The notes: a model not told the origin generated them from the letters alone. Positions 5,438-36,300 are shown, counted from the stretch's first letter. The stretch: DNA of 64,000 bases from Candidatus Nomurabacteria bacterium RIFCSPHIGHO2_01_FULL_37_25 (GCA_001786765.1 MFTH01000010.1:34105-98104), one strand, 5' to 3'. A program made the numbers and translations.

Positions 5438-6259
5438 ATGAATTCAAAAAAGATAATATTGATTATAGTTTCCTTAGTTCTTGTAGCTGGAGTTGGTTTT
5501 TATTTTTATGGCTTACCACCTATAAAATACTGGACTAAAAATCCGACCAACTTTGAAGAATGCAAAGAAGCTACACGAGGATTTATCATAAAAACATTAC
5601 CGGCCCAATGCGAGTTTCGAGGACAGAATTTTGTGGACCAATCGCAATAGACTCCACCAGTAACAACAAATAATCCTCCAGTAACCACGACAGAGAATCC
5701 TTCTCTATCAGCAGATAAAAAGAGTGTCGTTGCAGATGGTAAGGTTTTGTTAGCCATTGATAATGATACAATTTTTAATTGGTTCAAAACCGAAAGCCAG
5801 TTATGTGATGGATACAATCTAACCAGCAATCCTGATCGCAAGATGTTTTGTGAAAACAAAACATCTTTCAAGAACCAAACTAAATTTGCCTCAGTTGTTG
5901 TTTCTCCTGATAAAATGAAAATTGGTTTTACCATAGAAAGCGATACGTTGTCTCCTGATAAAGTTGTTGGCATTTTTTTACGCTCTACCAATAAAGTTAA
6001 TATTCTGACCAATTACTATCTCGGAAATGAATTTATTAGTTTTTCTCCGAGTGGTGCCAACTTTGTTTATCAAAGTGGCTGTTTTGAGGGAATATGCGGA
6101 CTGTTTGTCAAAAATTCCGAAACCTTTGCTATCAAAGCTAGTTTGAATAATCCCGAGTTTGCCGATTACAGAAGTCAGAATGCCATTTTTGTAAGATGGA
6201 TTTCAGACAATCAAGTTGAATATAAACTTGGGACAGAATTAAAACAAGAGTCGTTTTAA
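5438..6259 (+). pseudogene. Secreted membrane-anchored protein with PT-rich linker, interrupted by an in-frame TAG at 5648-5650 (N-terminal part 5438-5650, remainder 5651-6259 in the same frame)
   Basis: ATG 5438, TM anchor, in-frame amber stop, then TPPVTTNNPPVTTTENPS linker and a globular domain with no internal ATG before 5747. Confidence 0.4.
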
Positions 6260-6451
6260 TTCTGAATTTTAGTCGCCAAAGAAAAACTTGCCCGTCCGCC
6301 GAAGTTTTAACGAAGGCGGGAAATTGTCACTCGCCTCGCTAGCGCTATGGCGAAGCGGGTCGGTGCGGCTCCCCACCTGCGCCGAAATGCGTTCGGACTA
6401 ATTCAAGACTCTAAGTCGAAATTAATTATTAACTTTGCTATAATTAAACAT

Positions 6452-7051
6452 ATGAATCAAAAAGGATTTGTGAATATTGTTTTGATTGTGGTAATTGTAA
6501 CCGTTACCGCTATTGGTGGGTATTTTGCTTTTGTTAAAAAGTTGAGACCAATTGCTCAACAACCAACACAAACTCCTATTCAAACACCTACAGTATCTCC
6601 AACGTCTCCCCAGACCAAACCTGTCACTACCACAGTTCAAAATCCGGTAGTTAATAAATGGAAAACTTTCCAAAACAGCCGTTTTGCTTTTCAATTTGAA
6701 TATCCAACAGAATGGAGCGTGTTGGATAAGCTGGACGACCCATACGGTGTTAATTTTTGGTTGACGGAAAAGAATTCTGCTGCCGTAATCATGGATGTAG
6801 AAAGTGGGATAAATTTGTCGGTTATGGGGGTTTCTTATTGTGGCGCATACCCACAAGATAAAAGATGTGAATCTTTGAAAACTGAAAGCGATGGCTATGT
6901 AACCATTGACTGGAACGTAAGCGGAGGAGCCAACGCTATGTTTAGCTCGCAGAACGATACTTATGGGGTGAGTTTTACTTTGCATAAAATAAATTCTGAT
7001 ACAAAAGCTATTTTCAAAAAAGTTCTTTCGACTTTTAAATTCTTAAAATAA
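6452..7051 (+). CDS. Hypothetical secreted protein with prepilin-like N-terminus (QKGF...hydrophobic) and PT-rich linker
   Basis: MNQKGFVNIVLIVVIV... then QQPTQTPIQTPTVSPTSPQTKP linker; same architecture as the upstream gene; ORF-track start 6347 is probably too early. Confidence 0.5.
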   Translation: MNQKGFVNIVLIVVIVTVTAIGGYFAFVKKLRPIAQQPTQTPIQTPTVSPTSPQTKPVTTTVQNPVVNKWKTFQNSRFAFQFEYPTEWSVLDKLDDPYGVNFWLTEKNSAAVIMDVESGINLSVMGVSYCGAYPQDKRCESLKTESDGYVTIDWNVSGGANAMFSSQNDTYGVSFTLHKINSDTKAIFKKVLSTFKFLK

Positions 7052-7198
7052 TTTGCCGTCAAACCTGCCTGCCGGTAGGCAGGGAAAAACTTAAAATAAA
7101 GTAGCAAAAAAAAAACAGCAAATCCTGTAAAAAAGTTATCCCCACCAGTTGAATAATGATAAGTTGCATTATCTCGTATATGAGATATACTATTTGGT

Positions 7199-8716
7199 AT
7201 GCAAACACAAACAGAACAGCAAAAAATAGGCTATTTTATTAAAGAATTACGCGAACATCGCGGGATGACACAAAAGCAATTCGCCAAAATGTTAAACACT
7301 TCCCAAAGCTCAATTCCCCGAATGGAAAAAGGTGAGCAGAATTTCACGACAGAATTACTTTTAAAAATAAGCAATGTTTTAGACCACCAGATAGTTTCTA
7401 TAAATGATTCTATTGATTTCAAAGTTAATGGAGGAAAAAAATTAAATGGAACTATTAAAACAAATTTTTCAAAAAACGGTTCTGTCGGACTTTTGTGCGC
7501 TTCTCTTCTAAATAGTGGCAAAACGACACTCCATGGTATTGCCCGGATTGAAGAAGTTTATAGAGTAATTGAAATTCTAGAGAGTATCGGAGTGACAGTC
7601 AAATGGATTAATCAAAACACTTTGACAGTCATACCTCCAAAGAAATTTAATTTAGAAAATATTAATATTGACTCAGCAATAAAAACACGTTCAGTTGTTA
7701 TGCTAATAGGACCACTCATTCATAAGTTGTCTTCTTTTTCTCTTCCACATCCCCATGGTTGCAATCTAGGCAAACGCACAATTGCGGCGCATATATTTGC
7801 ATTAGAAAAACTTGGGGTAAAAATAAAAACTACCGCAAAAAATTATGAGATAACTAAAGGGAAACTCAAAAGAGGAGAAATAGTGATGTATGAATCCGGA
7901 GACACTGCTTGTGAAAACGTTTTGACAGCTTCTGCCCTTATTCCGGGTACTACAAAAATAAATTTCACCAGCGCAAACTACATGGTGCAAGAAGTATGTT
8001 TTTTTCTTGAGGTGTTAGGAGTAAAAATTGACGGAATTGGCGCCTCGAGTTTAACTGTTCATGGAATAGCTCATATAAATAAAGATGTTGAATATTGGAA
8101 CAGTGAAGACCCGATCGAATCCATGATGTTCATTTCCGCCGCAATCGGGACTGATTCACATATAACCATCACCCGCGCTCCTATAGATTTTTTGTCTCTA
8201 GAAATAGAAAAATTAAAGAGAATGAATTTGAAATATAAAATTTCAAAAATTTATCATTCTTATAATGGTCGTACTAAACTCGCTGATATAGAAATCTTTC
8301 CAAGTAAATTAAAAGCCTTAAATGACAAGCTTCATTCCAACCCTTACCCGGGAATAAATATAGACAACCTGCCATTTTTTGTGCCGATTGCCATAAAGGC
8401 CAAAGGTCAAACGATGATTCACGATTGGGTTTATGAAAATAGAGCAATATATCTGACAGAATTAAATCGTTTAGGCGCTGATATCACTCTGGCTGACCCT
8501 CATCGTCTATATATAAATGGCGGAACACCACTGAAAGGAGCTCAGGTCGTCTGTCCCCCAGCTTTGCGTCCATCAATGGTGATTCTTATTTCAATGCTAG
8601 GAGCTAGCGGAACTTCAATCCTGCGAAATGTTTATATGATAAATCGTGGTTATGAAGAAATTGCAGAGAGGCTGAATTCTATCGGCGCAGATATTAAAAT
8701 AATTAAAGGGAATTAA
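7199..8716 (+). CDS. murA: UDP-N-acetylglucosamine 1-carboxyvinyltransferase with N-terminal XRE-type HTH domain fused
   Basis: N-terminal HTH_3 (GMTQKQFAKMLNTSQSSIPRMEKG), then full MurA (active-site Cys in HPHGCNLGKR, C-terminal RGYEEIAERLNSIGADIKIIKG). Confidence 0.8.
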   Translation: MQTQTEQQKIGYFIKELREHRGMTQKQFAKMLNTSQSSIPRMEKGEQNFTTELLLKISNVLDHQIVSINDSIDFKVNGGKKLNGTIKTNFSKNGSVGLLCASLLNSGKTTLHGIARIEEVYRVIEILESIGVTVKWINQNTLTVIPPKKFNLENINIDSAIKTRSVVMLIGPLIHKLSSFSLPHPHGCNLGKRTIAAHIFALEKLGVKIKTTAKNYEITKGKLKRGEIVMYESGDTACENVLTASALIPGTTKINFTSANYMVQEVCFFLEVLGVKIDGIGASSLTVHGIAHINKDVEYWNSEDPIESMMFISAAIGTDSHITITRAPIDFLSLEIEKLKRMNLKYKISKIYHSYNGRTKLADIEIFPSKLKALNDKLHSNPYPGINIDNLPFFVPIAIKAKGQTMIHDWVYENRAIYLTELNRLGADITLADPHRLYINGGTPLKGAQVVCPPALRPSMVILISMLGASGTSILRNVYMINRGYEEIAERLNSIGADIKIIKGN

Positions 8717-9645
8717 TGCACCTTTTGAAAAATAACTTTTTGCGGGGTTTCGAGCCGGGCGGGGCGAGAATTATAGTTATCTTGGGCCAAACTGCCACAG
8801 GGAAAAGTGACTTGGCGGTAAAAATTGCCAAAAAAATAGGCGGAGAAATAATTTCAGCTGATTCAAGACAAGTTTATAAAGGACTCGATATTGGCACTGG
8901 TAAAATTACAGAAAAAGAAATGCAGACCATACCGCATTATCTGCTGGATGTTGCAAATCCCAAAAAACAATTTACTGTAGCGCAATATAAAATCCTGGCA
9001 GATAAAAAGATAAAAGAAGTAATTGATAGAGATAAAATACCGATACTTTGCGGTGGTACAGGATTTTATATTGATGCGGTAACAAAAGGTATGATTTTTC
9101 CAAAAGTTCCACCAAATAAAAAATTAAGAAAAGACTTGGAACAAAAAACAGCTGAGACTCTTTTTAATATCCTGAAAAAATTAGATAAAGATAGGGCAAA
9201 AAGTATAGATTCTAAAAACAAAGTCCGGTTGATAAGAGCAATTGAGATAGCTAAAGCTTTAGGTGAAGTCCCTAAAATTACGGAGGCAACGCCTCCGTAT
9301 AAATTTATAAAAATAGGGTTAAAAGTTCCAGAGAAAACTCTAAAAAGAAAAATAAGAATCAGACTACGCAAGCGCATACGAAGTGGTATGGCGATAGAGC
9401 TTTACAATCTTCGTAAAGCTGGAGTGCCGTGGAAAAGATTCATTGAATTAGGTTTCGATCAAAAGTATATTGCATTATTTTTGCAAGGGAAAATATCTAA
9501 TAAAGAAATGCTAGAAAAACTTTTTAAAAGTAATTGGCAATACGCAAAACGCCAGATGACTTGGTTCAAACGCGACAAAGAAATTAAATGGTTCTCCCCT
9601 GTTTCTTACAAAAAAATAAAAATCTATATAGAAAATAAACTTTAA
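8716..9645 (+). CDS. miaA: tRNA dimethylallyltransferase
   Basis: P-loop GQTATGKS, ADSRQVYKGLDIGTGK, HYLLDV motifs. Confidence 0.9.
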   Translation: MHLLKNNFLRGFEPGGARIIVILGQTATGKSDLAVKIAKKIGGEIISADSRQVYKGLDIGTGKITEKEMQTIPHYLLDVANPKKQFTVAQYKILADKKIKEVIDRDKIPILCGGTGFYIDAVTKGMIFPKVPPNKKLRKDLEQKTAETLFNILKKLDKDRAKSIDSKNKVRLIRAIEIAKALGEVPKITEATPPYKFIKIGLKVPEKTLKRKIRIRLRKRIRSGMAIELYNLRKAGVPWKRFIELGFDQKYIALFLQGKISNKEMLEKLFKSNWQYAKRQMTWFKRDKEIKWFSPVSYKKIKIYIENKL

Positions 9646-28370: not shown

Positions 28371-29336
28371 TTATTTCAGCATCTGTGTTATCAAAGAAAC
28401 CATCAAATCTTTTTTGTTGGGATTACTCTCAGCAATTAGAAGTGTGAGTGCTGTAAGCGCATTTGGATTTATTTTTCTTATGGTTTTTATTCTCGTCTTC
28501 TTTAGAAACCAAATAAAAGCAAAAGCGCCAGAGCGTTTGTTGCCATCTATAAACGGATGATTTTTTACCATAAAATACAGCAAATGCGCCGCCTTTTCTT
28601 CAATGGTTTTATAAACTGGATTTCCGTCAAATGCTTGCATTACATTACCAACTATCCCTTCAACGCTCCCCTTCTTTCTTTCTTGAGCAAAAATATCTGT
28701 CATGTCGCCAGTTTTCATTAATTCTTTGCGTAAATTCAAAATTCCATTCATCAATTCTTCACCATTCAACTTGATTGATTTTTTATTCACACCAATCGGG
28801 CTTAAAGTCTCTTTATCGTACGCATCAAGCGATACCCAAGTACTAGAAAATTCTTTAATTAATTCAATCACTGCTTTTGGGTCAAGTGTAATATGCTCTG
28901 GTAATAACATTTGAATATCACCCACCGACTTCATAAAGGCATCATAATTATTCCCAATTTGTTTGCGATTTATTGTATAACCTTTAACAATATGTTCACG
29001 AATAATTTTCGTAGCCCATTTACGAAATTCCATTGCGCGTTTTGAATTAGTTCTGTAACCAACGGCTAGGATAATATCAAGAGAATAAACATTCACTGGT
29101 TTATCTGAATTTGTAATGTGCATTTTTTGCACATTGCTTTTTCCATCAATTTCCCGATCTTTGAGAATGTTCTTTATATGTTTTGTAACAACGGAACGAT
29201 CGGTTTGAAAAGCTTTAGCAATTTGAGCTTGTGTGGCCCAAATTGTCTCTTTCTTAAAATCCCCCCGAAGTTCTATAGCTCCGTTTTTTGCTTGATAAAT
29301 TACAATATTATTTTGTATAATTTTCTTCTTCATCAC
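28371..29336 (-). CDS. RhuM-family virulence protein with C-terminal Fic/DOC domain
   Basis: RhuM N-domain (TQAQIAKAFQTDRSVVTKHIKNIL), Fic motif HPFIDGNKRSGAFAFIWFL. Confidence 0.75.
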   Translation of the reverse strand: MMKKKIIQNNIVIYQAKNGAIELRGDFKKETIWATQAQIAKAFQTDRSVVTKHIKNILKDREIDGKSNVQKMHITNSDKPVNVYSLDIILAVGYRTNSKRAMEFRKWATKIIREHIVKGYTINRKQIGNNYDAFMKSVGDIQMLLPEHITLDPKAVIELIKEFSSTWVSLDAYDKETLSPIGVNKKSIKLNGEELMNGILNLRKELMKTGDMTDIFAQERKKGSVEGIVGNVMQAFDGNPVYKTIEEKAAHLLYFMVKNHPFIDGNKRSGAFAFIWFLKKTRIKTIRKINPNALTALTLLIAESNPNKKDLMVSLITQMLK

Positions 29337-29549
29337 ATAATTTTTACCACATTAAATCATTACTGTAAATGCTTCATCTGGTGCATTCAACCACTATAAA
29401 ATCAAGAATTATGTGTGTAAAATCCATAGTTTTGTTGGGTGATGTTATCTTAACCTTTACGCGAAATTATTTCAAATAAGGTGAAGTGTTTTCTTCAGGG
29501 ATTGGTTTTTGGGCTGTATTTTGGTCATTGGGTATATTTTATATATTAT

Positions 29550-30398
29550 CTATTCACAAAACACCACTTCTTCTACGGGAATTTCTAATTGCTCCGCAAA
29601 CCAAGCTCTTGCCGTTTCCTGATCACCCAATGCATCAACCAATTTATTTTCAAGCGCAAGTGCGCCGGGCATTGAAGAACCATCAGCAAGTTTCGCAACT
29701 TGCTCAACTGGTAAATTTCTATTTTCCGCGACTTCTTTTATAAATTGCTCGTGATAGATTTTTAAATCGCGTTCAATCAAATCTCGCTCCGCAGGTGTAA
29801 GTGGCTTATCAGGATTTCCATAATCTTTAAATTTTGCGGATGCAAGCGAAACATATTGCAACCCTTCTTTAGTATTTTTGGCAGTATTTTCTAAATAAGA
29901 CAGGGTGATGCCGATACTTCCCACATCAGAAAGAGGAGAAGCGATTATTTTTTCAGCGCCTGTGGCTAAGAGATACGCGCCCGAAGTTCCCATTTCCCGT
30001 ATAAGAGCTACAACTGGTAATGAAGAATTTTTGAATCCATTTGCAATAATTTCTGAAGCAACTGGCGAACCACCACTAGAATCAATGCGAGCTAAAACAC
30101 CTAGGACATTCGGATCACTTTCAGCCCATCGAAGTGTATCCAGTGTATCGTCAGGATTCGTTGAAGGGGGCATTTCGTTTCCACTTCCGTCCTCATAAAC
30201 TCCAGCATAAGGGACAATATCTCCAGTTATTGGAATTACAGCAATGTTGCAAGAACCATCACTTATCATTGTGCTTGCGTTATATCCACTCCATTCGTCA
30301 TGCCATGAACCAAATATTCGAAGTCCAACAGCAAATACGACAATTATCGCTAAAGCCCATAGCGTAATTATTTTTAGTTGTGGCTTAATTGTTTCCAT
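29550..30398 (-). CDS. sppA: Signal peptide peptidase SppA (S49, 36K type)
   Basis: N-terminal TM, S49 catalytic-serine region (IASPLSDVGSIGI). Confidence 0.8.
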   Translation of the reverse strand: METIKPQLKIITLWALAIIVVFAVGLRIFGSWHDEWSGYNASTMISDGSCNIAVIPITGDIVPYAGVYEDGSGNEMPPSTNPDDTLDTLRWAESDPNVLGVLARIDSSGGSPVASEIIANGFKNSSLPVVALIREMGTSGAYLLATGAEKIIASPLSDVGSIGITLSYLENTAKNTKEGLQYVSLASAKFKDYGNPDKPLTPAERDLIERDLKIYHEQFIKEVAENRNLPVEQVAKLADGSSMPGALALENKLVDALGDQETARAWFAEQLEIPVEEVVFCE

Positions 30399-30705
30399 AA
30401 GGTTAATTTTAGCATTTTTAATGCTTACATAAAAGTTTGATTTAAAAAAGATACAATTTCTCTATATCATTATTTTTTCTTTCTGATATACTTTAGAAGT
30501 ACTTTTATGCTTTCTAAAACATCATTAATTTCTAAATTTTCAAAATTATTACTCACCATAGAATTTTTAGTGGCAATTTGCTTGACATTGCACCTGTGGG
30601 AAACTTTGACTTTTGAATTAAATTTTGTTAGTATTTAGGTAAGCAAGTAATTCCCCGAACGTGAGGCTCCGTATGGTTCCTCTATATAGCGTTCGGGGAT
30701 TTGCT

Positions 30706-31356
30706 TTATCCAAAAAGTGGATTTTCCTCAACAATATCAGATTTAATAATATTGTAATAACTCTCATCTCCATGTTCATATTTCCTAAATATCGCCCACG
30801 ACAACATATCAACAACCTGTAAGGCCTTTTCTTGTGTTGTAGATTTTATTTCAATATCTATATCAATTTTGTGATTATTTTTTGTCTGACTTTTTAGGTA
30901 AGTAGTGAAATTTTGATTCAAAAACTTGTTTGTCTCTCGTCGTGAAGCAATCAGAGAAATTTTCTCGTCAGTGGGAATAAGTTTTTTAGTATAAACACGA
31001 TCTAAAAGAATATTTGTGACATAATTATATAAAACCTGTTTCTCATCTTGTAGTTTTGTATATACTTTTTTCTTATTCAAATATATAACTAGAACATTTG
31101 ACATGTTTTTCTCTCTAAATAAATTCAGCAATTTTTGTCTTGTCTTTGGAGTTTCCTTGAAAGCATGCAAGACCCCGTTATGATTTTTGACTTCAGTTTT
31201 TGAAAAACCTTTAAAAATCTTTTTTACAATTCTTTCGATTAAAACCTTCTCTTTTACAAATAAAAAAGTGATAATAAAATATTTTGAAGTTTTTTTCTTC
31301 TTAAAATTAAAACCAAGATCCCCGCTTTCGTCTAGGAATATATACGCCATTGTCAA
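30706..31356 (-). CDS. DUF3800-family protein
   Basis: N-terminal IFLDESGDLGF motif characteristic of DUF3800. Confidence 0.6.
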   Translation of the reverse strand: MTMAYIFLDESGDLGFNFKKKKTSKYFIITFLFVKEKVLIERIVKKIFKGFSKTEVKNHNGVLHAFKETPKTRQKLLNLFREKNMSNVLVIYLNKKKVYTKLQDEKQVLYNYVTNILLDRVYTKKLIPTDEKISLIASRRETNKFLNQNFTTYLKSQTKNNHKIDIDIEIKSTTQEKALQVVDMLSWAIFRKYEHGDESYYNIIKSDIVEENPLFG

Positions 31357-31376
31357 ATATTTCTTGAAACTCTTTT

Positions 31377-31943
31377 TTAACTACCTATTTTTATTGATAA
31401 TATTTTTTCAAAAAAACTAATAATGGAATAAGTCATTAAACCAACAAAAAAATTTATAGATGGTAAGAGGTGGTAAAATAATATAGACTTAGGTTCAGAT
31501 ATATTTTCATTAAAAATTACAAATATCAACAACGATGAAAATAATATAAATATTGAATAAGAAAAATAGGCTAATTCTATGTCTTTCCCAGATTTTTCCT
31601 TAAAACCACTTGAAATAAAAATAAAATTACGAACAAGTAAACCAAGTAATCCTGTTGCTAAACTTAATACAAACCAGCCAATTAAGGTAAAATCAATAAT
31701 GAAATTCCAGGGACATAAAATAACTAATGCAAATAAAAATAAAGCGATAATTATACTAACTAACCATTTCGAAACTTTGTCACGCTCGGGCTTATAATCT
31801 TTTTTCTTATCCCAATTTTCGCACTGTTCTTTTATAAACTTCTTTATAGACTTTTCTTCGCCTTCAATTTCAATGATATTTTTGTTTTTATCTATCTTAA
31901 TTTTGGTCATATGTGTGCATAAATTTCTTTTAATATTTAACAA
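31377..31943 (-). CDS. Hypothetical 4-TM membrane protein
   Basis: Charged N-terminal region then four hydrophobic helices; co-operonic with the flanking genes. Confidence 0.45.
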   Translation of the reverse strand: MLNIKRNLCTHMTKIKIDKNKNIIEIEGEEKSIKKFIKEQCENWDKKKDYKPERDKVSKWLVSIIIALFLFALVILCPWNFIIDFTLIGWFVLSLATGLLGLLVRNFIFISSGFKEKSGKDIELAYFSYSIFILFSSLLIFVIFNENISEPKSILFYHLLPSINFFVGLMTYSIISFFEKILSIKIGS

Positions 31944-31949
31944 ACAATT

Positions 31950-34418
31950 CTATTTCAGCAGTTCGTATTCAAACAATTTTGGCTGGATTTTTGTTTCATA
32001 ATATTTATTAAGTTTTGTTTTTAAAGCTAATAGTTTTGTATTTAGTTGAGGATGATCATAAATTATTATTTCATTTTCATCTTTATGGTTAGTATTGAGC
32101 TCATTGTCTATTTGATATGTTCCATAAGTGTATTTGAAATTGTAATTTTTGATTTTCTTAGCCTCACTTAACACTTCCTTGAATGAAGCTAAAAGTTCTT
32201 TTTCTGATTCTAAAAGTTTAAATGATTTCAATTTTTCCGTGGCAACCGTTTTACCATCAAAACATAATTCATTTCGATAAAATCTGCCATCGGAACCATC
32301 GAATGATCTGCACTTATTGAAATAAGATAGACACGTATAAATTAAACAGGATTTTAGAAAATCCTTATCATACGTATAAGCACTGCCACCATCAGATGTC
32401 TTGAAAATGGTACCTTTCTCCCACCAACGACTACCTGAATCATATTTACCAGCCGCAAAAAGTGGTAACTTTTCTAAATAATTACCGGTATGTATATAAA
32501 AACCATGACCATCATACAATCCGCAACGAACCATTGTTGTTGCCAGTCTAGGATGATCAAACCCGAACTCTCTTGAAACTAAATAACCGAGTATGGATTT
32601 ATTGAAGATTGGTTTAATCGAGGCCTTAGTATACTGCTTTTGTGTTTCTCTCCCATCTAACTCAAGTAGAACTCCGACATCATCACTGTTTGTTGCTTCA
32701 TATTTATCATATAATTTACTAATAAGATTATGCGCTTTTTTTACTTTAACCTTATGTAGAGGTGAGATATTCAAAACATTGGTATTTGAGGTACCTTGTA
32801 TATCTATATCGTAAGCCATTAATATAAGTTCTTCCTTTTTCTCATCTAAGTTTTGCCATAAAATACAACTGATTGCCGATGGACCAGCATGAAAATGTAC
32901 ACGATTAAACAAGAATCCATCAATAAATTTATGATCTCCGAGACTAAGCGATTTCCAGTACTTGATAGGACTAAACAATATAAAATAATCATCTGTTTTA
33001 TTTAGATAATATTTATAAGCACTTGAAATAAAAAGATTGGATAAGTCATTTAGTGCTGGTCCTTTTAACTCTCCTCGCAATTGTTCTTTTACATAACTCG
33101 TATAACCCTTAGTTGCATTGGTATGGCTATTGCTTGCAGTATCACGAAATGGTGGATTTTCTAATAAAATAATATTAATTTTTTTATCTTTTACAAAATT
33201 ATTCAACTCAAAAATAGAGTTAATATACTCCTTACTCATTTTTATTTTTCCTTTGCCGAGTATAAATTGCTCACTCAGTGCATCACCCCCATTAACTAAG
33301 GCCTCCTTACCAGAAATTTCACCTGGAGGCGGAATAATCATTTTTACTTTGTTGCCGATGCGTTCATTTAAAACAACCCATTCTTTCAATTCATAGGTGT
33401 TAACAATGGCGTGAGATAATTCATTGTCAAAAATATAATCTCTGATTTTAGTTTTTGTTGGAAATTTTTCAAGGTATTTAAGAGTTATTTGATTAACATC
33501 ATCAAGTTTTAATCTTTTTAGTATGTGGGGGATAAAGTTTGCTTTTTCTGAAATATATTTTTCAATAAACTCATCTGATAAATATTTTTGCAATTCACCA
33601 ATAGTAATATCATTTACCTGTTTATCAGTTAAGAATTCCAAAAGATTGCCGGTTCCAGCGCAACGATCAAGAATAATATAATCATTACTTTTCGGAATCT
33701 GAGCAATAGCTTTACGCACAAGCTCAATGGCTTTTTTGCAGTAGCTAGGAGGCGTATAAAAAGCACCGAGCTCCTTGCGGTGCATCTTATCATTTAGAAG
33801 ATCCATTATATATTTAAAGTCTTTTTCTTCTCCTTTCCATGGATAAATGAACCTTTTAAAATATTTTGGCTCACGAAATTCTTCAAATAATTTAATCTTA
33901 GTGGCTTTAGGATTTTCAGAATAAAAACGATTGGACCAACCGACAACGTCATAGATATCGATAGTCACTTTAGTAAAATTGTTTGTTTGCACTAATTCAA
34001 TGATGCGTTGAATTCCGACTGGTTTATCGTATTTAATAACCTCCGGTTTTATTATTGTACTAAACTTATCATTGCCCTTACTAGCAGCGCCGATAAAAGG
34101 AGGACAGTTAATATATTTATTGGCAAAATCTTGAGACTTAAAGAGGTAGGCAATTTCTTGATTCAGATCTACTAATAAAATGTTTGCAGGAATACTAACA
34201 CCCTTGACACGCATATGGTTTAGATATTTTAGCGCTTGAAAAAGGGTGGTATTGATATTATTTATGTTAAGTTTAAATTCAAATATATTTCCATTATAGA
34301 TACCGTCAGTATTGTTGCTAAGTTCGGTATCTGTAATACCAAATTTACCAAAAAATTCAATTTGCCCTTCGCGCTCAGATAGAAAATTATTTACAGATTT
34401 AAATGTTTTTTTTATCAT
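31950..34418 (-). CDS. MmeI-like type IIG restriction-modification enzyme (N-terminal PD-(D/E)xK-like D-x8-EFK, gamma-class N6-adenine methyltransferase core, C-terminal TRD-like region)
   Basis: Motif X GAFYTP, motif I DRCAGTGNLL, motif IV LLENPPF; N-terminal DGIYNGNIFEFK resembles the MmeI D-x9-ExK nuclease motif. Confidence 0.65.
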   Translation of the reverse strand: MIKKTFKSVNNFLSEREGQIEFFGKFGITDTELSNNTDGIYNGNIFEFKLNINNINTTLFQALKYLNHMRVKGVSIPANILLVDLNQEIAYLFKSQDFANKYINCPPFIGAASKGNDKFSTIIKPEVIKYDKPVGIQRIIELVQTNNFTKVTIDIYDVVGWSNRFYSENPKATKIKLFEEFREPKYFKRFIYPWKGEEKDFKYIMDLLNDKMHRKELGAFYTPPSYCKKAIELVRKAIAQIPKSNDYIILDRCAGTGNLLEFLTDKQVNDITIGELQKYLSDEFIEKYISEKANFIPHILKRLKLDDVNQITLKYLEKFPTKTKIRDYIFDNELSHAIVNTYELKEWVVLNERIGNKVKMIIPPPGEISGKEALVNGGDALSEQFILGKGKIKMSKEYINSIFELNNFVKDKKINIILLENPPFRDTASNSHTNATKGYTSYVKEQLRGELKGPALNDLSNLFISSAYKYYLNKTDDYFILFSPIKYWKSLSLGDHKFIDGFLFNRVHFHAGPSAISCILWQNLDEKKEELILMAYDIDIQGTSNTNVLNISPLHKVKVKKAHNLISKLYDKYEATNSDDVGVLLELDGRETQKQYTKASIKPIFNKSILGYLVSREFGFDHPRLATTMVRCGLYDGHGFYIHTGNYLEKLPLFAAGKYDSGSRWWEKGTIFKTSDGGSAYTYDKDFLKSCLIYTCLSYFNKCRSFDGSDGRFYRNELCFDGKTVATEKLKSFKLLESEKELLASFKEVLSEAKKIKNYNFKYTYGTYQIDNELNTNHKDENEIIIYDHPQLNTKLLALKTKLNKYYETKIQPKLFEYELLK

Positions 34419-34524
34419 AAATTTATTTCAAAAGTTCATCCGCAGAAACCCCTAACGCTTTTGCTAATCTCATAAAAAAACGGATTCGTTTCATATTTTA
34501 CCCTAGTTTTTGATTCGTTCATAA

Positions 34525-35676
34525 TTATTTTTCGGCGCCACTAAACAAGCTAACATATTCATCATAAATATATGATTGACCATATTTCTTATCTTTATCT
34601 TTTGGAGTAAGAATCCCTATTTTTATAAATCTATCAATAACAGTCTGTGCTCCTGCGCGAGTAAACCCTGTCCATTTTTGAACGACAGTATTGTTTACGA
34701 TCGGTTGTCCGTAAAGTTTAGGTAAAACTTTAATGGCGCTTTCTGATGCTCGCTTACCCAATGTCTGTACTTTTCCCATATCCTGTTGGCGTAGCATGGT
34801 GATTTTGCCAACAATATCAATCGCCTCATTAGCAATCTCAATAACTCCATCAAGAAAAAAATCCACCCAATCAGACACAACCCCATGATGATAACCAAAA
34901 AGCTTCTCGTAATAGAGTTGCTGATGTTTCTTGAAGTAAGATGATAAGAAAAGTACCGGCTTCTCAAGAAATTTTTCTTTCCATAAATAGAAAGTGATGA
35001 GCATGCGACCCGTCCTGCCATTTCCATCAAGAAAAGGGTGGATTGTCTCAAATTGCGCGTGCAAAAGACCCGCCTTGATAACGGTCAAGGTCCCATCTTC
35101 ATCGTGCATATAATTCTCAAGATCGGTAAGCGCTTTATGCATCGCATCTACCGGAGGCGGTACAAATCGCGCGTTGTCGGGCCGAGTTCCTCCAATCCAG
35201 TTTTGAGTTTTACGAAACTCGCCAGGATCAGAAAAGTGAGTAGCTCTGGCTTTGTGCATCAATTTTTCGTGAAGTTCTCGGATGAACCGCAGAGTTAAGG
35301 GAAAGTCATCCGCCACTATGCGCTTCATTCCATAATTTAAAGCCTTAATGTAATGCAAAATATCATCAACATCTTCAGGAATGTTTGTATTGATTTTGAC
35401 TTCCGCCTCAATGGCATCAATCATCGTCGCCATAGTGCCCTCGATTTGGCTTGACGAGGCGGCGTCTTTGCGTAAGTACATAAGCAAGAAAAAATCAGCG
35501 TCAGGCAAAAGCTTGGTGATGCCATCTAATTTGCCAAGGAGCCGTGTTGCTTCGTTGTTTTTCTTAAGAATTTTTGAATCAAAATCAAAATTCTCTTTTG
35601 GCGGAAAAGGATTAGGAATAAAGGCTTTAAATCCTTCTTTTTGCTCTTTATTTATGCCAATTTGTATTGATTTCAT
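34525..35676 (-). CDS. Fic-family protein (AMPylator-type)
   Basis: HPFLDGNGRTGRMLITFYLW Fic motif, Fic_N region, C-terminal wHTH. Confidence 0.85.
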   Translation of the reverse strand: MKSIQIGINKEQKEGFKAFIPNPFPPKENFDFDSKILKKNNEATRLLGKLDGITKLLPDADFFLLMYLRKDAASSSQIEGTMATMIDAIEAEVKINTNIPEDVDDILHYIKALNYGMKRIVADDFPLTLRFIRELHEKLMHKARATHFSDPGEFRKTQNWIGGTRPDNARFVPPPVDAMHKALTDLENYMHDEDGTLTVIKAGLLHAQFETIHPFLDGNGRTGRMLITFYLWKEKFLEKPVLFLSSYFKKHQQLYYEKLFGYHHGVVSDWVDFFLDGVIEIANEAIDIVGKITMLRQQDMGKVQTLGKRASESAIKVLPKLYGQPIVNNTVVQKWTGFTRAGAQTVIDRFIKIGILTPKDKDKKYGQSYIYDEYVSLFSGAEK

Positions 35677-35712: not shown

Positions 35713-35860
35713 TTTGAATTACGAAACTCGTCGAAGGCATGTCTTTTTTAGGGGGTTTCGAGGCTGTCGAGCCGAGAACTTCAGGATTTTTTAAGCTTAA
35801 AAAAATCCGTACCCTAGAAAAAGACATGCCTAGAAAGAGTTTTGTAATTCATGATATACA
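35713..35860. mobile_element. MITE-like element copy 1 (~148 bp, 17-bp TIRs TTTGAATTACGAAACT / AGTTT[TC]GTAATTC[AA])
   Basis: TIRs flank a core with GGCTGTCGAGCCGAG and the perfect palindrome GGATTTTTTAAGCTTAAAAAAATCC. Confidence 0.75.
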
Positions 35861-35979: not shown

Positions 35980-36054
35980 TGGTGAGCGTGGATGGAATCG
36001 GACCATCGGCCTCTGTCTTATCAGGACAGCGTTCTACCACTGAACTACACGCTC
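35980..36054 (-). tRNA. tRNA-Ile(GAT) with atypical T-loop (TCCGATT), CCA encoded
   Basis: Reverse complement GAGCGTGTAGTTCAGTGGTAGAACGCTGTCCTGATAAGACAGAGGCCGATGGTCCGATTCCATCCACGCTCACCA; canonical cloverleaf but C at the usually invariant U55. Confidence 0.65.
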
Positions 36055-36122: not shown

Positions 36123-36147
36123 CTACACGCTCAAAACTTGTGAATTA

Positions 36148-36300
36148 CGAAACTCGTCGAAGGCATGTCTTTTTTAGGGGGTTTCGAGGCTGTCGAGCCG
36201 AGAACTTCAGGATTTTTCAACCTGCCTGCCGGCAGGCAGGGCTTCGAAAAATCCGTATCCTAGAAAAAGACATGCCTAGAAAGAGTTTCGTAATTCAAAG
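36148..36300. mobile_element. MITE-like element copy 2 with nested CCTGCCTGCCGGCAGGCAGGG palindrome replacing the central AAGCTT hairpin
   Basis: Same TIRs and core as copy 1; 36221-36241 carries the P1 palindrome. Confidence 0.75.

What the first reader, a model, noticed from the sequence alone, without database searches (positions are those of the whole stretch)
28371..35676. Defence-like island: RhuM/Fic, MmeI-like type IIG RM + membrane protein + DUF3800 operon, second Fic
Between the atp operon and the MITE/tRNA-Ile hotspot lie a RhuM-Fic/DOC protein and a second full-length Fic. Between the two Fic genes is a tight three-gene operon (gaps 6 and 20 nt), with sppA lying just outside it. 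Gene 1 of the operon is an 822-aa MmeI-like enzyme: a D-x8-ExK nuclease motif plus a gamma-class N6-A methyltransferase. Gene 2 is a 4-TM membrane protein and gene 3 a DUF3800 protein. A type IIG enzyme co-transcribed with a membrane protein and DUF3800 is not a standard RM arrangement and may be an uncharacterised multi-component defence system.
Basis: partly seen in the sequence, partly recalled or inferred. Interest (0 to 1): 0.62.

Follow-up and report, generated by a model that had tools for sequence, protein, structure and literature searches.

The report
Lone restriction enzyme beside DUF3800–RNA module
The supposed three-gene defence operon is really a patchwork: a stand-alone, so far unannotated restriction-modification enzyme, an orphan membrane protein, and a self-contained DUF3800 nuclease gene paired with a small structured RNA that habitually lodges next to restriction systems.

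Summary
The 822-aa protein has a type IIG/IIL build: an N-terminal PD-(D/E)xK nuclease fold (D38-x8-E47-x-K49, conserved family-wide), a gamma-class N6-adenine methyltransferase (FYTP, DRCAGTG, NPPF) and a hypervariable segment at 541-630. It matches no Pfam, NCBIfam, PADLOC or PDB sequence profile, MmeI models included. Its family (540 clusters at 50% identity) spans many phyla and small Limosilactobacillus plasmids.

The three-gene system is not conserved. In 48 distinct loci of the 822-aa family the membrane protein never recurs. DUF3800 recurs once, behind an IS1595 transposase. A syntenic Nomurabacteria locus carries a different gene in that slot. None of 80 DUF3800 loci carries the 822-aa gene or the membrane protein.

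All 80 do carry a ~70-nt structured RNA abutting the DUF3800 stop codon. It covaries strongly, is absent from Rfam 15, and G·U asymmetry plus a conserved TTGACA-N17-TATAAT promoter show convergent transcription. This module sits next to, or inside, type I, IIG and III restriction operons in about 13 of 45 loci.

Verdict: a mosaic defence islet. The multi-component reading is largely refuted. A looser DUF3800-RNA link to restriction systems is real and unexplained.

The parts
34525..35676 (-). SoFic-type Fic protein (383 aa; Fic_N + Fic; motif HPFLDGNGRTGR). An independent single-gene candidate abortive-infection toxin.
   Evidence: Pfam Fic_N 1e-20 and Fic 3e-20. PADLOC SoFic 9e-108 over the full length. 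The NCBIfam SoFic equivalog scores 125 bits, below its cut-off of 550.
34423..34494 (-). Truncated remnant of an XRE-type helix-turn-helix gene (MKRIRFFMRLAKALGVSADELLK), ending 4 nt before the 822-aa gene's start codon.
   Evidence: Sequence and translation. It resembles by eye the C-terminus of the intact 69-aa XRE regulator directly upstream of the homologue in L021 (PHROGs transcription regulators at 6e-16).
31950..34418 (-). 822-aa single-chain restriction-modification-like enzyme from an unannotated family: N-terminal PD-(D/E)xK nuclease, helical linker, gamma-class N6-adenine methyltransferase with a 268-330 insertion, a hypervariable putative target-recognition segment, and a conserved C-terminal helical domain.
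   Evidence: No hit in Pfam, NCBIfam, PADLOC or PDB sequences. Over 1,643 homologues and 540 clusters at 50% identity. Fold matches to BpuSI, DrdV, LlaGI, MmeI and type I methyltransferases. hhalign to an Eco57I-type methyltransferase gives 80% probability with motifs X, I and IV aligned. No companion restriction-modification genes within 4 kb in 51 loci.
34272..34307 (-). Codons for D38-x8-E47-x-K49, the putative PD-ExK catalytic motif.
33147..33668 (-). Methyltransferase core, from motif I (D251-R-C-A-G-T-G257) to motif IV (N421-P-P-F424). Motif X (FYTP220-223) lies just upstream.
   Evidence: A weak PHROGs 'DNA methyltransferase' hit covers residues 213-279 (E 9e-4).
32529..32798 (-). Residues 541-630, the least conserved stretch of the protein and the putative target-recognition domain.
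   Evidence: Identity to the query is 0.27-0.42 here, against 0.65-0.84 in the catalytic blocks. L027 shows a mosaic identity of 74% before residue 547 and 58% after residue 556.
31377..31910 (-). Orphan membrane protein (177 aa from the ATG; 188 aa from the upstream TTG). It has a charged N-terminal ~48 aa followed by 3-4 hydrophobic helices.
   Evidence: Only two clusters exist among 5.8 billion proteins: itself and a 45%-identical Colwellbacteria protein. That homologue has an unrelated context. Hydropathy. Local GC is about 25-28%.
30706..31350 (-). DUF3800 protein (214 aa; invariant N-terminal D-E-S-G-D). The literature describes the domain as an RNase H-like fold.
   Evidence: Pfam PF12686 at 2e-13. 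2,189 homologues. Conserved residues. The RNase H-like fold is stated in PMC10910872.
30639..30708 (+). Conserved ~70-nt structured RNA gene convergent to DUF3800. Three nested helices (P1-P3) carry conserved internal-loop nucleotides. Its 3' end abuts the DUF3800 stop codon.
   Evidence: Model R1 scores 81.8 bits, E 2e-21. Covariation: 219 double-sided changes against 72±8 in shuffles, and 87.8% paired against 30-43% in slid registers. Antisense to DUF3800, the 99 A·C mismatches become G·U pairs (95.9% paired) and the free energy is lower in 53 of 53 sequences. Present in 80 of 80 DUF3800 loci. No Rfam match.
30606..30634 (+). Sigma-70-type promoter for the RNA (TTGACT, 17-nt spacer, TAGTAT, with TG before the -10 box).
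   Evidence: The same TTGACn-N15-19-TAnnnT arrangement occurs in 30 of 51 loci, against 0.1±0.3 in shuffles and 1 on the other strand. An extended -10 box occurs in 37 of 68 loci, against 5.1±2.2.
29550..30398 (-). SppA signal-peptide peptidase. A housekeeping neighbour that is not part of any system. It serves as the anchor gene shared with the syntenic locus L011.
   Evidence: Pfam S49 at 1e-32. TIGR00706 at 2e-45. 82% identity to L011 9351-10187.
28371..29336 (-). RhuM N-terminal domain fused to a Doc-type Fic domain (HPFIDGNKRSG). Matches the PADLOC candidate system PDC-S23.
   Evidence: PDC-S23 at 3.6e-104 over the full length.

Best explanation
The region is a mosaic defence islet in a Candidatus Nomurabacteria genome, assembled from independent modules. 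It is not one operon-encoded system.

(1) The 822-aa protein is a self-sufficient single-polypeptide restriction-modification enzyme of the type IIG/IIL kind, from a widespread family that no current profile library recognises. The following steps are inferred. The variable segment at about 541-630 reads an asymmetric DNA site. The gamma-class domain (FYTP, DRCAGTG, NPPF) methylates an adenine with SAM to protect host DNA. The N-terminal PD-ExK domain (D38/E47/K49) cuts unmethylated incoming DNA at a distance set by the helical linker, probably needing more than one bound enzyme as in MmeI, DrdV and BpuSI.

(2) DUF3800 and a convergently transcribed ~70-nt structured RNA form an autonomous protein-RNA module. 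This module travels between genomes and preferentially settles beside or inside restriction operons. I infer that the RNA binds or regulates the RNase H-like DUF3800 protein, in an antitoxin-like or cofactor role. The module may act as an RNA-controlled back-up effector or as an addiction element.

(3) The membrane protein is a lineage-restricted orphan caught between the two.

(4) The SoFic-like Fic and the RhuM-Doc protein are separate single-gene toxins.

The three genes may be co-transcribed here, but that is an accident of insertion.
For: Architecture of the 822-aa protein:
- Motifs are invariant or near-invariant.
- hhalign aligns motifs X, I and IV with an Eco57I-type type IIG enzyme.
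- Residues 541-630 are hypervariable.

It stands alone and is mobile:
- Every locus has different flanks: a ribosomal S10/L3 operon, mreBC, recJ, glycosyltransferase genes.
- The family spans more than 10 phyla.
- It occurs on small Limosilactobacillus plasmids, including a 9-kb L. reuteri MOBP plasmid.
- No companion methyltransferase, R or S gene lies within 4 kb in 51 loci.
- Small MazE/AbrB-type or XRE regulators sit directly upstream in some loci.

It has no fixed partner:
- The downstream gene varies: AAA_15/21, PemK, DUF4357, CBS, DUF2130, RNase_H_2 superfamily, TspO, or unknown.
- The membrane protein occurs in 0 of 48 loci and DUF3800 in 1 of 48.
- The reciprocal count is 0 of 80.
- The syntenic locus L011 carries other cargo.

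DUF3800-RNA module:
- The RNA is present in 80 of 80 DUF3800 loci. It occurs only after DUF3800 in 627 kb of other loci and in the window.
- Covariation is strong. Strand evidence comes from G·U asymmetry and a conserved promoter.
- Restriction-modification neighbours include hsdR-hsdS-DUF3800-RNA-hsdM in L098/L101, hsdM-DUF3800 in L130, an Eco57I-type type IIG enzyme in L139/L134, and type III Mod/Res in L066.
- Restriction-like genes make up 12 of 77 immediate neighbours against 2 of 94 at rank 4 or beyond.

Literature: DUF3800 genes associate with 11 other RNA motifs (PMC5737381), and the domain has an RNase H-like fold (PMC10910872).
Against: - No enzymatic activity was measured.
- The target-recognition assignment rests on variability alone.
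- The three genes are closely spaced on one strand with no terminator between them. Co-expression, and therefore some functional interplay in this organism, cannot be excluded.
- DUF3800's recurrent restriction-modification neighbourhood, and its presence near a second 822-family gene (L020), could mean a real functional link rather than co-localisation in islands.
- The neighbour-enrichment test used seed proteins picked from proximal genes. The loci are metagenomic and partly related to one another.
Confidence: 0.7

Rival explanations
1. The type IIG-like enzyme, the membrane protein and DUF3800 form one co-transcribed multi-component defence system. The restriction enzyme would sense or cut DNA, and the membrane protein and DUF3800 would act as effectors.
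For: The genes share a strand, have gaps of 6-39 and 20-26 nt, and have no terminator between them. DUF3800 neighbours restriction genes elsewhere. L020 also has DUF3800 within 1.3 kb of an 822-family gene.
Against: The triad occurs only in this one population. The membrane protein is absent from all 48 other distinct loci, and its only homologue sits alone. In L020 an IS1595 transposase on the opposite strand separates the two genes. The syntenic L011 replaces both genes with an unrelated 239-aa gene. GC differs between the parts.
Confidence: 0.07
2. The DUF3800-RNA module is a genuine accessory of restriction-modification systems in general. It would be a 'restriction-linked' guard comparable to PrrC or RloC in type I loci. 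Here it would cooperate with the 822-aa enzyme, for example by firing when the enzyme is inhibited. The membrane protein would be irrelevant.
For: The module is embedded inside type I operons, with start/stop overlap to hsdS or hsdM (L098, L130). It is also adjacent to type IIG and type III systems. Proximity enrichment is 12/77 against 2/94, p = 0.0016. The window and L020 add a fourth kind of restriction enzyme.
Against: About 70% of DUF3800 loci show no restriction gene among the nearest neighbours. Association with many unrelated restriction types fits island co-localisation as well as it fits function. No mechanism is demonstrated. DUF3800 also associates with CRISPR and retron loci in the literature.
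Confidence: 0.2
3. The 822-aa protein is not a restriction enzyme. It could be an orphan or regulatory DNA (or RNA) methyltransferase with a non-catalytic or repurposed N-terminal domain, or a mobile selfish methyltransferase-nuclease unrelated to defence.
For: No profile library calls it a restriction-modification protein. MmeI relatives lacking nuclease activity are known (PMC2731913). The methyltransferase active-site regions are poorly modelled.
Against: D, E and K of the PD-ExK motif are conserved down to 26% identity. The nuclease fold matches type IIG/IIL and HsdR nuclease domains. The family shows a hypervariable segment, rampant horizontal transfer, plasmid carriage, and upstream controller-like regulators typical of toxic restriction genes.
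Confidence: 0.1

Closest known systems
MmeI family / DrdV (type IIL single-chain restriction-modification enzymes)
   Same: Both have an N-terminal PD-ExK nuclease with D…ExK (MmeI D70-x9-E80-x-K82; here D38-x8-E47-x-K49). Both have a helical spacer, a gamma-class N6A methyltransferase and a C-terminal specificity region in one polypeptide. Neither has a flanking methyltransferase or a consistent neighbour gene (PMC2731913).
BpuSI / Eco57I-type type IIG enzymes
   Same: BpuSI is the best structural match for both the whole protein and the isolated nuclease domain. The methyltransferase motifs align by hhalign with an Eco57I-type enzyme.
   Different: hmmscan gives no Pfam HSDR_N, Eco57I or TaqI_C hit. 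The nuclease domain does not align in the profile-profile comparison.
DUF3800-I to DUF3800-XI RNA motifs (Weinberg et al. 2017, PMC5737381)
   Same: A structured, covarying non-coding RNA tightly linked to a DUF3800 gene. It can lie on the opposite strand and ends in a U-rich terminator-like tail.
   Different: It matches no Rfam 15 model, on either strand, in the window or in 20 other loci. Rfam 15 includes at least DUF3800-I and DUF3800-IX. I could not check whether Rfam holds all eleven motifs. This motif is specific to a Patescibacteria-centred DUF3800 subfamily.
Restriction-linked accessory genes: PrrC in EcoprrI, RloA/RloB/RloC in type I loci (from my own knowledge, not tested here)
   Same: A nuclease-type gene is inserted between hsd genes of a type I operon (L098, L130), and the partner restriction system varies.
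   Different: DUF3800 is unrelated in sequence to these genes as far as tested here. It carries its own RNA gene and is also found away from restriction genes.
Type I/III toxin-antitoxin systems with RNA antitoxins: convergent sRNAs such as RatA/SR4, and ToxIN (from my own knowledge)
   Same: A protein gene is paired with a small RNA gene. Here the RNA is convergent and ends at the 3' end of the protein gene.
   Different: There are no tandem RNA repeats as in ToxIN. The protein is a 214-aa RNase H-like protein, not a small membrane peptide. Toxicity has not been shown.

Membership tests
Type IIG/IIL single-polypeptide restriction-modification enzyme (the kind) | PD-(D/E)xK endonuclease domain with conserved catalytic D…(D/E)xK in the same chain | tested here: met
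   D38/E47/K49 are invariant and at least 90% conserved in 26-53%-identity relatives. The N-terminal model hits the BpuSI, DrdV and HsdR nuclease domains and other PD-(D/E)xK nucleases.
Type IIG/IIL single-polypeptide restriction-modification enzyme (the kind) | Gamma-class N6-adenine methyltransferase motifs in the order X - I - IV | tested here: met
   FYTP220-223, D251..AGTG257 and NPPF421-424. hhalign aligns them with an Eco57I-type enzyme at 80% probability. Fold hits include TaqI, HsdM, CamA, MmeI and BpuSI.
Type IIG/IIL single-polypeptide restriction-modification enzyme (the kind) | Target-recognition domain within the chain | tested here: inconclusive
   A hypervariable stretch at 541-630 lies between conserved blocks, and L027 shows mosaic identity. 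No fold-level match to a known target-recognition domain was obtained.
Type IIG/IIL single-polypeptide restriction-modification enzyme (the kind) | Works without a separate methyltransferase, R or S gene | tested here: met
   No homologue of HsdM, HsdR, HsdS, Eco57I-type or N6_N4 methyltransferase lies within 4 kb in 51 loci. The gene sits on a 9-kb plasmid in which no other restriction-modification gene is annotated.
Type IIG/IIL single-polypeptide restriction-modification enzyme (the kind) | Site-specific methylation and cleavage at a fixed distance | not testable with these tools
   Needs biochemistry or methylome data.
MmeI family (Pfam MmeI_N, MmeI_hel, MmeI_Mtase, MmeI_TRD, MmeI_C) | Sequence-profile match to the MmeI domain models | tested here: not met
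   No Pfam hit at E<=0.01. At E<=10 the only hit is a spurious DUF4174 match. No PDB sequence hit to 5HR4 or 7LO5, even with a profile.
MmeI family (Pfam MmeI_N, MmeI_hel, MmeI_Mtase, MmeI_TRD, MmeI_C) | Overall fold superimposes on MmeI/DrdV | tested here: inconclusive
Eco57I/BpuSI-type type IIG | Pfam HSDR_N nuclease + Eco57I methyltransferase + TaqI_C target-recognition domain | tested here: not met
   None of these models hits the protein. They do hit the true Eco57I-type enzymes in L139 and L134. Only a remote profile-profile match covers the methyltransferase region.
DUF3800 (PF12686) | Match above the Pfam gathering score | tested here: met
   51.5 bits against a cut-off of 21, covering profile positions 1-149 of 149. 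All listed homologues carry PF12686.
DUF3800-associated RNA motifs (Rfam DUF3800-I, -IX and others) | Conserved, covarying structure next to a DUF3800 gene | tested here: met
   Present in 80 of 80 loci. 14 of 21 pairs show double-sided changes, and the covariation score is 0.47 against 0.16 in shuffles.
DUF3800-associated RNA motifs (Rfam DUF3800-I, -IX and others) | Match to an existing Rfam covariance model | tested here: not met
   No hit at the gathering score, at E<=10 in 1.65 kb, or at E<=1 in 20 other loci.
SoFic defence protein | Full-length match to the SoFic model plus the Fic motif | tested here: inconclusive
   PADLOC SoFic 9e-108 over 15-379, and the HPFLDGNGRTGR motif is present. 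The NCBIfam equivalog scores 125 bits, below its cut-off of 550.
PADLOC candidate PDC-S23 (RhuM-Fic/Doc) | Full-length match to the PDC-S23 model | tested here: met
   3.6e-104, residues 4-321 against profile positions 3-324 of 327.
Proposed three-gene system (type IIG + membrane protein + DUF3800) | Conserved co-occurrence of the three genes in other genomes | tested here: not met
   The membrane protein occurs in 0 of 48 loci and DUF3800 in 1 of 48. The reciprocal count is 0 of 80. The membrane protein's only homologue is isolated.

The most novel reading that the evidence does not exclude
DUF3800 and its convergent structured sRNA form a new class of RNA-controlled nuclease module. The RNA would act as antitoxin, cofactor or guide. 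The module would be functionally coupled to restriction-modification systems of several types, including the previously unrecognised type IIG-like family found here. It would serve as a back-up or guard effector that fires when restriction is subverted.
Probability: 0.2. Interest if true: 0.75.

Novelty: new variant of a known kind. Interest (0 to 1): 0.5.

Why it matters
Three things follow.

First, a large family escapes every profile library used for annotation and defence prediction: Pfam, NCBIfam and PADLOC. The family has 540 clusters at 50% identity, spans many phyla and occurs on plasmids. It has the full architecture of a single-chain restriction-modification enzyme. Candidate Phyla Radiation bacteria are reported to rely mainly on restriction systems rather than CRISPR (my own knowledge). 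Missing such a family would bias defence inventories. Single-chain enzymes with swappable specificity are also useful tools.

Second, DUF3800-associated RNAs have been a puzzle since 2017. This work adds a well-supported motif with a defined strand, promoter and terminator-like tail, and with perfect linkage to its protein. It also adds a context clue: the module is embedded in type I, IIG and III operons. Together these make a toxin-antitoxin or guard hypothesis directly testable.

Third, the case is a caution. Tight spacing on one strand in an island is not evidence of a system.

Tried and rejected
- Sequence-level assignment of the 822-aa protein failed. Pfam at E<=10, NCBIfam, PADLOC, and PDB phmmer and profile searches gave nothing. 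The only hits were a weak PHROGs 'DNA methyltransferase' match and a remote hhalign match.
- Phage origin was rejected. There is no phage-genome hit, and viral contigs hold only distant fragments.
- BREX, DISARM and type ISP readings were rejected. No helicase, PglZ or other partner is adjacent.
- A fixed downstream partner was rejected. The neighbours are heterogeneous.
- The apparent truncation of the gene in the NCBI assembly (704 aa in L059) is a scaffold gap of Ns, not phase variation.
- The RNA motif as a plain terminator or an mRNA 3'-UTR element was rejected. Unpaired nucleotides are conserved, the G·U asymmetry favours the opposite strand, and that strand has its own promoter.
- Promoter scans for the three protein genes are uninformative in this AT-rich DNA: 43 sites found against 35±6 expected.
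- The profile search of DUF3800 against PDB sequences gave no hit.

Full report
**Observation.** The window matches a Candidatus Nomurabacteria population from the Rifle aquifer. Over the 822-aa gene it is identical to GCA_001786035.1 contig MFVJ01000033, apart from that assembly's scaffold gap. The downstream intergenic region is also identical.

- RhuM + Doc-type Fic, 28371-29336
- SppA, 29550-30398
- DUF3800, 30706-31356
- a membrane protein, 31377-31943
- an 822-aa protein, 31950-34418
- a Fic_N + Fic protein, 34525-35676

The stated gaps of 6 and 20 nt hold for the longest ORFs, which start at TTG. With the ATG starts used in public gene calls they are 39 and 26 nt. The atp operon, tRNA-Ile and two MITE-like copies with 34-nt terminal inverted repeats are also present. 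GC drops to 25-28% over the membrane and DUF3800 genes. It is about 32% over the big gene and 41% over the Fic gene, which suggests separate origins.

**The 822-aa protein.** It has no hit in Pfam (even at E<=10), NCBIfam, PADLOC or PDB sequences, either alone or as a profile. Public records call its relatives 'hypothetical protein'.

It nevertheless belongs to a large coherent family. More than 1,643 homologues share words with it. An exhaustive search finds 540 clusters at 50% identity. The family spans Patescibacteria, Bacteroidota, Rickettsiales, Mycoplasmatota, Elusimicrobiota, Planctomycetota, Bacillota, Campylobacterota, Desulfobacterota, Actinomycetota and a nanoarchaeon. It also occurs on small Limosilactobacillus plasmids.

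The conserved residues are D38, E47, K49, Q61, FYTP220-223, D251, AGTG254-257 and NPP421-423. They are invariant among 37 relatives of 55-84% identity. They stay invariant or at least 90% conserved in 27 sequences of 26-53% identity.

- An AlphaFold model (pLDDT 71.5) finds BpuSI, DrdV, LlaGI, CamA and BsaXI with Foldseek.
- A profile-profile comparison aligns motifs X, I and IV with a genuine Eco57I-type type IIG enzyme at 80% probability.
- Residues 541-630 are by far the least conserved, as expected of a specificity domain.

The protein therefore works like a type IIG/IIL single-chain restriction-modification enzyme. It is not a sequence member of the MmeI or Eco57I families as currently defined.

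**Is there a three-gene system?** I fetched 48 distinct genomic loci of the family and several metagenomic ones.
- The flanks differ in every locus: between ribosomal S10 and L3, after mreBC, after recJ, among glycosyltransferase genes.
- A closely linked same-strand downstream gene is common, but its identity varies: AAA_15/AAA_21, PemK, DUF4357, CBS, DUF2130, RNase_H_2 superfamily, TspO, or unknown.
- tblastn finds the window's membrane protein in none of these loci and DUF3800 in one, L020. There DUF3800 lies upstream, separated from the big gene by an opposite-strand IS1595 transposase.
- The membrane protein has only one other homologue among 5.8 billion proteins. That Colwellbacteria gene sits next to IF-2/RbfA and a NUDIX gene.
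- Locus L011, from another Nomurabacteria, keeps the big gene followed by sppA (82% identity). An unrelated 239-aa gene fills the gap between them.
- Conversely, none of 80 metagenomic loci of the DUF3800 subfamily contains the 822-aa gene or the membrane protein.
- No other restriction-modification gene lies within 4 kb of any 822-family gene.

The big enzyme stands alone.

**The DUF3800 module.** The DNA directly after the DUF3800 stop codon is more conserved than the protein.
- An alignment of 53 copies supports three nested helices. It shows 219 double-sided compensatory changes against 72±8 in shuffles, and 87.8% pairing against 30-43% in slid registers. All six P1 pairs and seven of nine P2 pairs covary.
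- A covariance model finds exactly one strong copy in each of the 80 DUF3800 loci. It finds one in the window at 30639-30708. In 627 kb of 822-family loci the only copy is the one after L020's DUF3800.
- Rfam 15 has no match on either strand.
- On the DUF3800 sense strand there are 99 A·C mismatches and 9 G·U pairs. On the opposite strand these swap, pairing rises to 95.9%, and the folding energy is lower in 53 of 53 copies.
- That opposite strand carries a conserved promoter immediately upstream of the motif. TTGACn-N15-19-TAnnnT occurs in 30 of 51 loci against 0.1±0.3 in shuffles. An extended -10 box occurs in 37 of 68 loci against 5.1±2.2. In the window the promoter lies at 30606-30634.

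The RNA is therefore an independent small gene convergent to DUF3800, ending in a U-rich tail at the stop codon. This fits the published observation that DUF3800 genes are accompanied by diverse structured RNAs of unknown function (PMC5737381). It also fits the report that DUF3800 has an RNase H-like fold (PMC10910872).

**Link to restriction systems.** Among the two nearest genes on each side of DUF3800 in 45 loci, the most frequent Pfam families are N6_Mtase, ResIII, DEAD, Eco57I, HsdM_N and HSDR_N. Methylase_S also recurs. Examples:
- hsdR-hsdS-DUF3800-RNA-hsdM, with overlapping stop and start codons (L098, L101)
- hsdM-DUF3800…hsdS (L130)
- Eco57I-type type IIG enzyme with DUF3800 (L139, L134)
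- RadC-DUF3800-Mod (L066, L077), with Res next in L066
- DUF3800-hsdR-hsdM (L141)

Restriction-like genes make up 12 of 77 immediate neighbours but 2 of 94 at rank 4 or beyond (p = 0.0016). One caveat is that the seed proteins came from proximal genes. The link is not specific to this enzyme family, and it does not involve the membrane protein.

**Mechanism.** What is shown: domain architecture, motif conservation, independence of the modules, and the RNA's structure, strand and promoter.

What is inferred: the big enzyme methylates an adenine in an asymmetric site and cleaves unmodified DNA at a distance. The RNA binds or regulates the DUF3800 nuclease, in an antitoxin-like or cofactor role. 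The module exploits or backs up restriction loci.

Small MazE/AbrB-type genes (L006, L012, L027) or an XRE gene (L021) lie directly upstream of some homologues. The window keeps only a truncated XRE remnant. This suggests controller-type regulation, typical of toxic restriction genes.

**Verdict.** The region is a mosaic defence islet. Its two noteworthy contents are an unannotated family of type IIG-like enzymes and a DUF3800 + convergent sRNA module with a new RNA motif and a recurrent, unexplained association with restriction operons.

Noticed in passing
window 34423-34494 (-); L021 2462-2671; L006 7823-7996; L012 5559-5726; L027 5823-5990: Small DNA-binding genes sit directly upstream of 822-family genes. 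L021 has an intact XRE HTH, and three close relatives have MazE/AbrB-type 55-aa proteins. The window retains only the last ~20 codons of an XRE gene. This looks like controller-type regulation that has decayed here.
   Followed up: partly
L001 10488, L007 10446, L009 5625, L018/L020 ~8440-8480, L021 5133, L024 3517, L027 8452, L011 8402: Many 822-family genes are followed within 3-50 nt by a same-strand gene of ever-changing identity: AAA_15/21, PemK, DUF4357, DUF2130, RNase_H_2 superfamily, TspO, CBS, or unknown. The position behaves like a cargo slot downstream of the enzyme gene.
   Followed up: partly
L004 7049-15805; L005: In one Patescibacteria genome the 822-family gene, a 23S_rRNA_IVP gene and several small ORFs are inserted between ribosomal protein genes S10 and L3. 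This is normally an uninterrupted operon.
   Followed up: no
window 35715-35851 and 36141-36297, flanking tRNA-Ile 35980-36054: Two copies (93-98% identical) of a ~140-160-nt element with 34-nt terminal inverted repeats bracket the tRNA-Ile gene at the edge of the islet. They look like MITEs.
   Followed up: partly
L027 6001-8444: This homologue is 74% identical to the window protein up to residue 547 but only 58% after residue 556. This suggests recombinational exchange of the C-terminal specificity half.
   Followed up: no
L143 (L. reuteri pAN417D, 9,085 bp, MOBP) 6557-9022; L144 (L. oris plasmid) 6248-8641: Cultured-organism homologues (32-36% identity, about 800 aa) sit on small plasmids, next to an IS30 transposase in one case. 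They are annotated as hypothetical. They offer a tractable route to test the family's activity.
   Followed up: partly
L011 3190-5821: Upstream of the syntenic Nomurabacteria homologue lie Fic/DOC, HD, DUF2726 and NYN-domain genes. This is another defence-island-like set at the same chromosomal position but with different content.
   Followed up: no
L066 1072-6524; L077 584-5932; L096 4179-7717: RadC (JAB) genes repeatedly sit next to the DUF3800-RNA module in restriction loci: RadC-DUF3800-RNA-Mod(-Res) in L066/L077, and DUF3800-RNA-RadC-HsdM in L096.
   Followed up: no
window 34395-34418 (-): The 822-aa gene begins ATG ATA AAA AAA ACA, an A8 run right after the start codon. Such runs can mediate phase variation in restriction genes, but they are also expected by chance in 32% GC DNA. 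No length variants were examined.
   Followed up: no
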